Source of the DNA: Candidatus Woesearchaeota archaeon
Lineage (GTDB): Archaea; Nanobdellota; Nanobdellia; Woesearchaeales; JAFGPW01
Assembly: GCA_016935985.1 (NCBI GenBank)
Contig: JAFGPW010000008.1
Coordinates: forward strand, 1-64,000
Length of the DNA: 64,000 nt
Reading direction: 5' to 3'
Positions 9,001 through 12,000 of the stretch are shown piece after piece. Made by a program: the position numbers. Each line of letters starts with the position of its first letter. Positions within the stretch are counted from its first letter, which is position 1.

Positions 9001-12000
9001 TGGTTCTACTTCGCGGCGGAGACCGGCTCGAACCTGATCAACTACTTCATCCACATCTTCGCCGAGTCGGTCTACCTCGGCGGCAACGCGGAGAAGATCG
9101 CGCTCATCATCAGCAAGAACTTCTCGCGGCTGATATCGCTCAGGAAGCTCCGCTTCCAGCTCGCCTCAGGCCTGCGCGGCGCGCTCTACGGGGCGCTGCT
9201 CGGCTTTACGGTGACGGTCTACATGGCGGTTTCGATCACCCAGATGCTCGCCGACATGTTCGCGGCGGCTTTCACCCGGACCCAGCTCCAGGGTGAGGTG
9301 GCATCGGTCGTGGGATCGATTCTGCCAGCGATCCCCGCGATTGACATAGTCCAAGTGAATCTCTATATAGGGCTCATGGTGATCATCCACGCCCTCATGT
9401 CATCGATCATCATCAAGATGGTGGACGGCGGGAACCGCTTCGCCGCGCTCTTCGACTTCACGATCATGCTCTGGATCGGGGCGATCCTATCCTGGGGCAT
9501 CCCGATCCTCTCCCAGTGGGCCTTCGGCTCCATGCTCACCGTAGAAGGGGGTGCCGAGGGCGGCGAGATCCCTGCCCGTGAGCTCGAATATGAGGAATAC
9601 TGACCATCCAAGGCGGCTGTCCCGTCCCGATGAGGACAGCAGATGAGGCTTCCGAGCATATGCACTATACTGAAAGCGAAAAGTTTATATAATAGATGCT
9701 CTTAGTATAGCAATAAGTATATTAGAATGTACATCCTGTTATCCTAAGTGTGTGCAGGACACACGAATGCAAAATAATCAGCGTGACATATTCCGTAGCA
9801 AAGAGGTGCCAAAATGCGTAAACTGCTGATAGACAAGAAAGCCGAGATGGGTGTGGGAACCCTTATCGTTTTCATCGCCATGCTGCTCGTGGCGGCGGTG
9901 GCAGCAGGGGTCCTCATCCAGACCGCAGGCTCGCTCCAGGAGAAGGCGCTCTCGACCGGCAGTCAGGCGAAAGGGCAGATTGCCACCAACGCCCGCGTGG
10001 TCGAGGTGTCCGCTACCGAGGGGACCGACGGCGAGGTCGACATCTTCGAGCAGATCCTCAAGCTCGCTCCGGGCTCGAACCCCATCAAGCTCGAGGAGGT
10101 CATCTTCACCTTCAATACCTATGACTCGACAGCGACGCTGCGCTACGCCGGCACCAACAGCTCCTTCGATAACACGCTCACCGGCTACAATACCTACCGC
10201 GAGGAGGACGTCGGGTACGTCAACACCACGCTCTGGACGCAGCTCTCCGACGACCTCGACGGCGACGGCGAGTACGACTACGTCCGCATCAACGGCGTCA
10301 CCAGCATCCAGCTGAACCTCAGCACCTACACGAGCCCGCTCGTCGAGAACATCACCATCGGCAACTGGACCACCGTCGGCACCACGGCCCAGGGCACGGT
10401 CTCCTTCGAGGACGGCGGCATTACCTACGCGACAGCCGAGGTCGACGCCTACATCTACAATACGGGTGTGGTCGAAGCGAACCAGACCTTCAACGTGACG
10501 CCGGTCGAGAATTTCGGTGTGGGCTTCTTCGCCGTGCAGTACCTGCAGCAGGGCTCGAACTTCGTCGCCGGAAACCTCCAGCGCGGCGATGTCGTCAGGG
10601 TCTACTACGAGGCGCCCCGCCCAGTCGGCGAGGACGAGGAGATCAGGGTCAACTTCATCCCCAAGATCGGCACCCCGACCCTGACCCAGTTCGTCACCCC
10701 CGACGTGATTTCGGTCGAGCGCGTCTACCTCTACCCGTGAGGGCAGAGGTTCCTTTCCTTTTTTTCTCTTTTTTCTCCTTTCTTCTTACCTATCATCATC
10801 TTCTCTCGGCCAGCCCTCACCCTATTCCGCTCGCAGCCGTCCCTTCTCGTATCAGGTCCGGACTCCTCCGACTGGACAGTATTAATATGTACCAATATGT
10901 CGATTCGAAAGGTTTATATATGAGTGTGCGTACAAATAGACTAATTACCGGGTGGTGTGGTTGATTTCATTTCCACTGGGCATCAGAGATTCACTCTCAT
11001 GATTCCAGAGAAGCTATAGGAGGTTTGGTCATGATGTGGGGAACAAAGGCTGAGATGGGTGTCGGCACCCTTATCGTTTTCATCGCTATGCTTCTGGTGG
11101 CGGCTGTCGCGGCAGGGGTCCTTATCCAGACTGCAGGCAGCCTGCAGGAGAAGAGCCTGATGACCGGCACGCAGGCGAGAGACCAGATCGCGACGAACGC
11201 CGAGACCGTGGAGGTGTCGGCGACCGACGGCACCGATACAGAGGTGGACTACTTCGAGCAGATTATCAAGCTCGCTCCCGGCTCGAGCTCGATCAAGCTC
11301 GCCGAGGTCATCCTCACCATGAACACCTACACCTCGACCGCGACCCTTAAGTACCGGGGCACGAACGGGACGTTCTACAACACGTTCCACGGCTACAACA
11401 CCTATCGAGAGGAGGACCTGGGGGCTGTGAACACGAGTTGGATCGAGCTCGATGACGACCTCGATGACGACGGCTCGTACGACTACGTCCGCATCCTGGG
11501 ACTGAATGGCATCGCCCTCAACCTGAGCAGCGACGGGATCATCGTCGGCAACATCTCGGGAGCGAACAACTGGAGCTCGGTCAACAAGACCATGAGCGGC
11601 TCGACCACGCTCAGCGACGGCGACATCGACTACGCGACCGTCGAAGTGGAGGCCTACATGTTCACCGCGAGCACCGTGGCGGCCAACCAGACCTTCAACG
11701 TGACGCCGGTCGAGAACTTCGGCAAGGGCTACTTCAGCGTCGAGTACCTGCAGCAGGGCCAGAACTTCGTCGTCGGGAACCTCCAGCGCGGCGACGTGAT
11801 CAAGCTCTACTACGAGGCGCCCGAGCCGATTGGCGAGTCCGAAGAGGTCAGGCTGAACTTCCTGCCCAAGATCGGCACGCCGACGCTCACCCAGTTCGTG
11901 ACGCCGGACGTGATGAGCGTCGAGCGGGTCTACCTGTACCCGTGAGCATTTTTTTCCTTCCCTTTCCATCATTCCAAAAGGAGGTGTGTACCATTACCAA

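What a model noticed while it worked through the whole genome (the two positions that open the first line are those of the whole stretch)
9703..10740. TATAC-N6-GTATA box links archaellins, a pilin and ftsZ in one regulon
A third palindrome, TAGTATAC-N6-GTATACTA, sits at 23 intergenic sites, among them the arl operon, two archaellin genes, a pilin-like gene, a surface-protein gene and twice before one ftsZ. It is likely the operator of a regulator that couples motility to division, perhaps the Lrs14-like wHTH g01166 facing the arl operon. That would be a dispersal-stage switch in a DPANN archaeon.
Evidence so far: Spacer 6: 7 exact and 24 one-mismatch sites against 0-2 and 3-11 for other spacers; PWM 23 intergenic hits against 0-4 shuffled; sites at C9:4784, 9703, 93719, 111579, 111677, C6:201505, C4:173594. 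g01166 Lrs14 family E 3e-4.
(Added by a program. Inside this text positions count along the whole contig: contig position 1 is position 1 of the stretch shown here. "Call 12" and the like, gene names such as g00115 and contig names such as C1 are that model's own, and its searches are not shown. The text may have been shortened before it was handed on; [...] marks where a part breaks off. The agent that wrote the report below was given it as the finding of a first reader that could run no searches.)

Follow-up and report, generated by a model that had tools for sequence, protein, structure and literature searches.

The report
Order-wide DPANN motility and division regulon
A 22-base DNA palindrome sits at fixed distances from the promoters of swimming, surface, chromosome-segregation and cell-division genes across one whole order of tiny symbiotic-type archaea; it is likely read by an undescribed 137-residue winged-helix protein that would turn on itself and a spare ftsZ while turning off the archaellum.

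Summary
The box TAGTATAC-N6-GTATACTA is real. All seven cited sites were recovered by a matrix trained on other genomes. It is conserved before archaellin genes or the arl operon in 11 of 13 archaellated genomes. It also occurs before scpA, an extra ftsZ2, pilins and secreted proteins, including in genomes with no archaellin found.

The wHTH beside the arl operon occurs in only 10 of 61 genomes, fails the Lrs14 cut-off, and carries its own palindrome, TTCGG-N5-CCGAA, in 10 of 10 promoters.

The likely binder is an unannotated 137-aa protein (C6:112919) with a predicted winged-helix fold. Its promoter carries the box in 52 of 74 loci. Gene and box are confined together to this order: gene in 208/218 versus 0/83 genomes, strict box in 151/218 versus 4/83.

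Box position implies opposite control. It lies downstream of TATA at archaellin, arl and scpA promoters (repression) and upstream at the regulator's own gene and the extra ftsZ2 (activation). That suggests a swim-or-divide switch, not co-induction. Binding is untested. I found no description in the papers searched or in this scan's notes.

The parts
9703..9724 (.). Box, 11 bp downstream of the TATA box of archaellin gene 1 (repressor position)
   Evidence: 21.6 bits; same position before the orthologous archaellin in G003, G021, G019, G030, G033 and others
9677..9691 (+). BRE and TATA box (9684-9691) of archaellin gene 1, predicted from consensus
   Evidence: sequence; TATA pattern match
9814..10740 (+). 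Archaellin gene 1, target of the box
   Evidence: PF01917 E 1e-23
11034..11945 (+). Archaellin gene 2, own TATA, no box
   Evidence: PF01917; best box score 0.8 bits
4784..4805 (.). Box, 14 bp downstream of the TATA box of the arl operon
   Evidence: 13.7 bits; present in 5 of 10 orthologous regions
4737..4751 (.). Second palindrome TTCGG-N5-CCGAA between the divergent TATA boxes; likely operator of the arl-adjacent wHTH
   Evidence: exact in 10 of 10 promoters of that wHTH, two of them away from the arl operon (read from printed sequences)
4094..4687 (-).
   Evidence: HTH_20; 10 of 61 genomes, all archaellated; Lrs14 21 bits vs cut-off 90
4993..5454 (+). arlF/G, first gene of the arl operon
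   Evidence: NCBIfam ArlG 72.8 and ArlF 67.4 bits, both below cut-off
5466..9603 (+). arlH, arlI, arlJ
   Evidence: KaiC-like ATPase, T2SSE, T2SSF; names from family and gene order
1769..1790 (.). Further box, 11 bp downstream of a TATA-like sequence (1802-1809, - strand) of the gene at 3-1688
   Evidence: 20.8 bits; spacing read from the sequence
3..1688 (-). Secreted-looking protein of at least 562 aa, cut by the contig end; likely target
   Evidence: own gene call; no Pfam family

Best explanation
The box is a conserved, order-wide promoter element, likely the operator of an unannotated 137-aa protein (G000 C6:112919; paralogue C8:68528) that is predicted to be a winged-helix regulator and would act as both activator and repressor. 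Shown: the box, its conservation, its fixed spacing to TATA, and its confinement to the same order as the gene. Inferred: a dimer binds the two GTATAC half-sites. Where the box lies 1, about 11 or about 21 bp downstream of TATA (archaellins, arl operon, scpA, secreted proteins, another wHTH), it would block RNA polymerase. Where a box or half-site lies just upstream of the BRE (its own gene, the extra ftsZ2 copy, some pilins), it would help TFB load. Self-activation would make the state sticky: high regulator gives extra FtsZ2 on and archaellum off, low regulator gives swimming cells. A second regulator, the wHTH beside the arl operon, likely activates archaellum genes through TTCGG-N5-CCGAA.
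For: Own promoter: box in 52 of 74 loci at >=12 bits, against 0-8 at other spacers; gap to TATA peaks at 9 (16 loci) and 18 bp (27 loci). Most remaining promoters keep one half-site 17-18 bp before TATA. Co-distribution: gene in 208 of 218 genomes of the order and 0 of 83 in other orders of the class; strict box in 151 of 218 and 4 of 83, with 5 hits against 22 control hits outside. Fold: helix-strand order of a winged helix, pLDDT 76.5; top structural matches are winged-helix domains, best Z 8.7, rmsd 2.5, 72 aligned. The predicted recognition helix is identical in 116 of 118 close homologues; pI 9.3. Targets at >=10 bits, against other spacers: archaellins 11 of 40 (0-3); arl operon region 5 of 10 (0-1), scpA 8 of 28 (0-2), ftsZ2 21 of 68 (1-6), trmB control 0 of 30; pilins 7 of 40 (0-4). 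Position: archaellins 11 downstream and 0 upstream of 14 sites; scpA 6 and 0 of 9; own gene 1 and 77 of 94. The upstream arrangement marks one ftsZ2 copy in 14 of 18 two-copy genomes and 1 of 35 one-copy genomes. In G000 it occurs at 2 of 289 BRE-TATA-like sites: this gene and the extra ftsZ2. G028, whose orthologue has an altered helix, has no box at the gene and fewer boxes than control (9/8 vs 20/21). The position rule is established for TrmBL1 (PMC4706686, passages).
Against: No binding or expression data. The order boundary is a single phylogenetic contrast: any order-specific gene would show it. Winged-helix folds also serve protein contacts; the best matches are cullin domains and no Foldseek match reached E 0.001. 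Genomes where the gene was not found still hold strict boxes (G002 5, G033 4, G012 2; 79-88% complete), as do 3 of the 10 gene-negative genomes. Most targets are patchy: G000's own scpA and parA have no box. ftsZ2 sites are mixed (7 upstream, 9 downstream of 26), pilin sites too (about 4 upstream, 3 downstream, read by eye). TATA boxes are pattern matches; no start sites were mapped. The final matrix was trained on this gene's promoters, using a first matrix seeded from archaellin sites.
Confidence: 0.6

Rival explanations
1. Same binder, but it only represses. The upstream sites overlap or crowd the BRE and block TFB, so the regulator shuts down itself, the extra ftsZ2, archaella and surface genes together as a growth-phase or stress repressor.
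For: Half-site and second-site arrangements reach into the BRE. Negative autoregulation is the commoner pattern (own knowledge). Most non-self sites with an assigned TATA lie downstream.
Against: The full box at 18 bp and the half-site at 17-18 bp leave BRE and TATA free and keep exact spacing, as activator sites do (EarA sites lie 9-11 bp before the BRE, PMC10665913 passages). A blocker needs no such spacing.
Confidence: 0.15
2. The 137-aa gene is only the best-conserved target; another order-specific factor that I did not identify reads the box.
For: Autoregulation is inferred from footprinting only. I tested four rival regulators, not all of them. Boxes persist in incomplete genomes where the gene was not found.
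Against: No other gene tested comes near this conservation of the box. The protein has a basic, invariant predicted recognition helix. Its one tested divergent orthologue goes with loss of the box.
Confidence: 0.15
3. One reading: the wHTH facing the arl operon binds the box and couples motility to division.
For: A box lies in its divergent promoter region in 5 of 10 genomes.
Against: Found in 10 of 61 genomes while the box is order-wide. Its promoter always has TTCGG-N5-CCGAA, and it has no TATAC box in the two genomes where it lies away from the arl operon. Fails the Lrs14 cut-off.
Confidence: 0.04
4. One of the near-universal TrmB proteins reads the box, which resembles the TrmBL1 motif TATCAC-N5-GTGATA.
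For: TrmB in 58 of 61 genomes; similar motif length and dual positioning (PMC4706686, passages).
Against: 0 of 30 trmB promoters carry the box. TrmB is present in 5 of 5 genomes outside the order, at 53-59% best identity in four of them, where the box is absent. P. furiosus TrmBL1 also lacks its motif at its own gene, so the first point is weak alone.
Confidence: 0.04
5. The box is a by-product of AT-rich, TATA-like promoter sequence.
For: 14 of 16 consensus letters come from TATA-like words; the single-genome signal is modest.
Against: Spacer-6 specificity in every gene set, local shuffles near zero, sharp spacing to TATA (22 sites at 1 bp vs 2 in controls), absence in other orders.
Confidence: 0.02

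Closest known systems
TrmBL1 and its TGM motif, Pyrococcus furiosus (PMC4706686, passages seen)
   Same: Global regulator with a spaced palindrome; represses downstream of TATA, activates upstream.
   Different: Motif TATCAC-N5-GTGATA; sugar metabolism; TrmB family. The 137-aa protein has no Pfam or NCBIfam match.
CsmR, Haloferax volcanii (PMC13286277, passages seen)
   Same: One regulator with a palindrome (TATCA-N4-TGATA) beside TATA boxes ties archaellum genes to cell form.
   Different: Lrp/AsnC type; other motif; the word ftsZ does not occur in that paper's main text.
EarA, Methanococcus and Pyrococcus (PMC10665913, passages seen)
   Same: Winged-helix regulator of archaellin promoters.
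   Different: Activator at short repeats (TACATA) upstream of the BRE, confined to the arl cluster. The TTCGG-box wHTH here is the closer functional analogue.
CdrS (PMC8406309) and aCcr1 (PMC9976878), passages seen
   Same: Small lineage-wide regulators of division genes with palindromic boxes; CdrS is proposed to activate ftsZ1 from upstream, aCcr1 represses from downstream of TATA.
   Different: Ribbon-helix-helix fold. cdrS is co-transcribed with ftsZ2, whereas the 137-aa gene neighbours ftsZ in only 3 of 138 loci.
AbfR1 (Lrs14 type), Sulfolobus acidocaldarius (review PMC10117864, passages seen)
   Same: Autoregulated winged-helix regulator of archaellum genes.
   Different: Binds with little specificity and activates arlB; neither protein here passes the Lrs14 cut-off.
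CtrA of Caulobacter (recalled, not looked up)
   Same: One autoregulated factor controls flagellar, pilus and ftsZ genes across a swarmer and a dividing stage.
   Different: Bacterial response regulator under phosphorylation; unrelated protein; polarity differs.

Membership tests
Lrs14 (arl-adjacent wHTH, window 4094-4687) | Score above NCBIfam NF040939 cut-off (90 bits) | tested here: not met
   21 bits; an unrelated wHTH of this genome scores 32.8
EarA | Match to Pfam EarA-like (PF07381) | tested here: not met
   no match for the window wHTH at E<=0.01 or the 137-aa protein at E<=1
EarA | Direct-repeat sites upstream of the BRE of the first archaellin | tested here: not met
   the box is an inverted repeat, downstream of TATA at 11 of 14 archaellin sites and upstream at none
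CdrS / aCcr1 | Ribbon-helix-helix fold | tested here: not met
   model has winged-helix element order; top matches are winged-helix domains
CdrS / aCcr1 | Gene directly upstream of ftsZ2 | tested here: not met
   ftsZ neighbour in 3 of 138 loci; Rad3/XPD-like helicase (label from my reading of the sequence) in 61
TrmB / TrmBL1 | TrmB HTH and effector domains | tested here: not met
   no Pfam match for the 137-aa protein
TrmB / TrmBL1 | Sites both downstream and upstream of BRE-TATA | tested here: met
   positions only, effect untested
CsmR (Lrp/AsnC type) | Lrp/AsnC-type HTH and TATCA-N4-TGATA motif | tested here: not met
   no family match; motif differs in half-site and spacer
Winged-helix DNA-binding regulators | Three-helix bundle with a two-strand wing | tested here: met
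   predicted model, pLDDT 76.5; Z 8.7, rmsd 2.5, 72 aligned
Winged-helix DNA-binding regulators | Sequence-specific DNA binding | not testable with these tools
   needs a shift assay, footprint or DAP-seq
Winged-helix DNA-binding regulators | Dimer matching a two-fold site | not tested
   no complex prediction was obtained

The most novel reading that the evidence does not exclude
The 137-aa protein is the master switch of a two-stage life cycle in this DPANN order. Self-activation makes it bistable: in the high state cells express an extra FtsZ2 and divide with the archaellum and a set of surface proteins off; in the low state they release archaella, ScpA and surface proteins and disperse. 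It would be an archaeal counterpart of CtrA, found by sequence alone in an uncultured lineage.
Probability: 0.25. Interest if true: 0.9.

Novelty: new variant of a known kind. Interest (0 to 1): 0.74.

Why it matters
I found no regulon described for this group in the papers searched. A cultured DPANN relative has a motile free stage and an attached stage (PMC11104419, abstract, methods and first results read), but what controls the change is open. This gives a named protein, a 22-base operator and a list of targets with predicted signs. All can be tested in vitro without culturing the organism. It also gives a likely function to a protein found in about 95% of genomes of the order and labelled 'hypothetical', explains why many genomes keep a second ftsZ2, and identifies a probable dedicated archaellum regulator with its own operator.

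Tried and rejected
Arl-adjacent wHTH as binder: rejected. TrmB: rejected. wHTH C6:44486: box in 5 of 21 promoters, but found in only 16 of 61 genomes, so a target. 92-aa wHTH C6:110367: present in 5 of 5 genomes outside the order, box in 1 of 8 promoters. TTCGG-N5-CCGAA as a general archaellin motif: exact before only 1 of 35 archaellin genes examined plus C6:14998, so it is mainly the operator of the wHTH/arl promoter region. Family and structure searches for the 137-aa protein gave nothing by sequence: Pfam, NCBIfam, PDB, Atlas. The full profile search gave 80 hits, nearly all the family or its fragments, and three distant unnamed proteins. Expression: no RNA holder listed, no reads laid. 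No dimer model was obtained. Rfam: no match in the window. Literature: searches returned no papers; searches returned none describing this box or protein (listings only, except the papers cited). Supplements were not read, and most subscription papers are not in the library. This scan's notes: nothing on this box or protein.

Full report
Setting. The window is C9:1-64000 of a 1.4 Mb, 61% GC genome. Homologue names and record titles point to Woesearchaeota/Nanoarchaeota. The tools give only 'same order'; the name Woesearchaeales is my recollection. Gene calls outside the window come from my own simple caller. The window holds a wHTH gene (4094-4687, minus), arlF/G-H-I-J (4993-9603) and two archaellin genes (9814, 11034).

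Observation. All seven cited sites exist. Spacer 6 gives 8 exact and 22 one-mismatch TATAC/GTATA sites, against 0-2 and 6-16 at other spacers. Within AT-rich islands the dyad is only just significant after correction. A matrix from other genomes finds 24 sites at >=10 bits against 1-9 at other spacers, 23 outside called genes. Only two of four archaellin genes carry it. ftsZ1 and the canonical ftsZ2 do not; the ftsZ with boxes is an extra ftsZ2 copy. About half the sites precede genes with no clear link to motility or division.

Conservation. Archaellins were found in 13 of 61 genomes. Of 40 archaellin genes in the 30 loci picked by protein similarity, 11 carry the box, against 0-3 at other spacers. 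Adding G051 (arl operon) and G024 (coordinates), 11 of the 13 genomes have it at an archaellin or arl promoter. None was seen at the promoters examined in G014 and G040. The strict box occurs in 31 of 61 genomes, many without archaellins, so the regulon is not motility-specific. Recurring targets near motif hits were scpA (5 genomes), a 75-98 aa coiled-coil protein (5), secreted proteins, pilins and parA. Direct tests at >=10 bits: scpA 8 of 28 (30 loci, 2 dropped as short; includes the query's genome), ftsZ2 21 of 68 (70 loci), arl region 5 of 10, trmB 0 of 30; pilins 7 of 40 genes in 30 loci. In G000, 28 of 1288 genes have a box upstream.

The arl-adjacent wHTH was found in 10 of 61 genomes, all archaellated. 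It scores 21 bits against an Lrs14 cut-off of 90. All 10 of its promoters carry TTCGG-N5-CCGAA, including two where the gene lies away from the arl operon and has no TATAC box. The same palindrome abuts the TATA box of archaellin C6:14998 and precedes an archaellin in G019. I read it as a dedicated archaellum regulator with its own operator, in an activator-like position (inference).

The likely binder. Gene C6:112919 (137 aa) has orthologues in 56 of 61 genomes. The box lies upstream in 21 of 30 loci and in 52 of 74 further loci (80 fetched; 5 short and 1 duplicate dropped; these sets overlap in part). It ends 9 or 18 bp before TATA; most other promoters keep one half-site 17-18 bp before TATA. 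The protein has no family match. Its model has winged-helix topology and its best structural matches are winged-helix domains, though of mixed function and with no Foldseek hit at E<=0.001. The predicted recognition helix is the same in 116 of 118 close homologues. Gene: 208 of 218 genomes in the order, 0 of 83 in other orders of the class. Strict box: 151 of 218 and 4 of 83. Two of the 218 (G276, G277) are unpublished and may not be published without permission; they enter only these counts. This is one phylogenetic contrast. TrmB and a 92-aa wHTH persist outside the order. G028, with a changed helix, and G040, where the gene was not found, have fewer boxes than control. Against: G002, G012 and G033 (79-88% complete) have boxes but no gene found, and 3 of 10 gene-negative genomes have a strict box.

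Direction of control. Among 155 non-self sites, gaps to a TATA pattern peak at 1 bp (22 sites; 2 among 149 control sites), 10-14 bp and 19-25 bp downstream, and at 9-10 and 18 bp upstream. This set is enriched for families I fetched. Archaellin, arl, scpA, secreted-protein and coiled-coil sites are downstream; own-gene sites are upstream (77 of 94). In P. furiosus TrmBL1, downstream binding repressed 9 of 9 templates and upstream binding activated 2 of 3 (PMC4706686, passages). The upstream arrangement marks one ftsZ2 copy in 14 of 18 two-copy genomes (only one copy was examined in two of them) and 1 of 35 one-copy genomes. In G000 it occurs at 2 of 289 BRE-TATA-like sites: the regulator gene and the extra ftsZ2. 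Other ftsZ2 and pilin sites are mixed, and one box at G000's extra ftsZ2 overlaps that TATA box, so dose-dependent shut-off is possible.

Mechanism. Shown: box, conservation, spacing, co-distribution. Predicted: fold. Inferred: binder, dimer, sign of control, bistability, link to life stages. The best reading is an autoregulated dual regulator that represses archaellum and surface genes and activates itself and an extra ftsZ2 (0.6). Rivals: pure repressor (0.15), another binder (0.15), arl wHTH (0.04), TrmB (0.04), artefact (0.02). Nanobdella aerobiophila has a motile free stage and an attached stage (PMC11104419), but it is a different lineage, and no life cycle is shown here for this order.

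Known systems. It works like TrmBL1 in logic, like CsmR and EarA in archaellum targets, and like CdrS and aCcr1 in division targets. It is a member of none by the tests listed. For these papers I saw passages only; supplements were not read. CtrA is recalled. Searches that found no description.

Verdict. A real, order-wide regulon with a new candidate regulator family: a new variant of a known kind. Interest 0.74.

Noticed in passing
window 4737-4751; G000 C6:14932; L132-L141: Palindrome TTCGG-N5-CCGAA in all 10 promoters of the arl-adjacent wHTH; likely operator of an undescribed archaellum regulator found only in archaellated genomes.
   Followed up: partly
G000 C6:95700-95979; L053-L080, L404-L443: Leaders of the canonical ftsZ2 are about 250 nt long and carry 1-5 TGGCG words in 36 of 69 upstream regions; possibly a conserved RNA or protein-binding element.
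   Followed up: partly
G000 C9:111836 and C6:95979: 18 of 61 genomes show two ftsZ2 copies besides ftsZ1, with different promoter types.
   Followed up: partly
L311, L321, L322, L330, L333, L461: Unknown 75-98 aa coiled-coil protein with near-perfect boxes downstream of TATA in six genomes; not found in G000 by tblastn.
   Followed up: partly
window 49200-57000: 38% GC island with thioredoxin-like, reductase-like, transporter, HTH and ParA/MinD-like ORFs (labels from reading the sequences) and a duplicated 208-nt upstream element at 49680 and 55268; weak box-like hits lie in it.
   Followed up: no
G000 C9:112873-113369; L341: Gene directly after the extra ftsZ2, with a conserved-looking C-terminal tail; a similar-looking gene in G021 has a box, and G051 has one just after its ftsZ2. 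Possible division partner; likeness judged by eye.
   Followed up: no
G000 C6:44486-45049; L111-L131: wHTH family whose promoters have TTAATTAA-rich stretches upstream of TATA and a box downstream in 5 of 21; often beside secreted-protein genes, suggesting a regulatory cascade.
   Followed up: partly
P0196, P0198, P0199: Three distant, longer, unnamed relatives of the 137-aa protein (E 1e-6 to 1e-4), each a singleton of unknown origin.
   Followed up: partly
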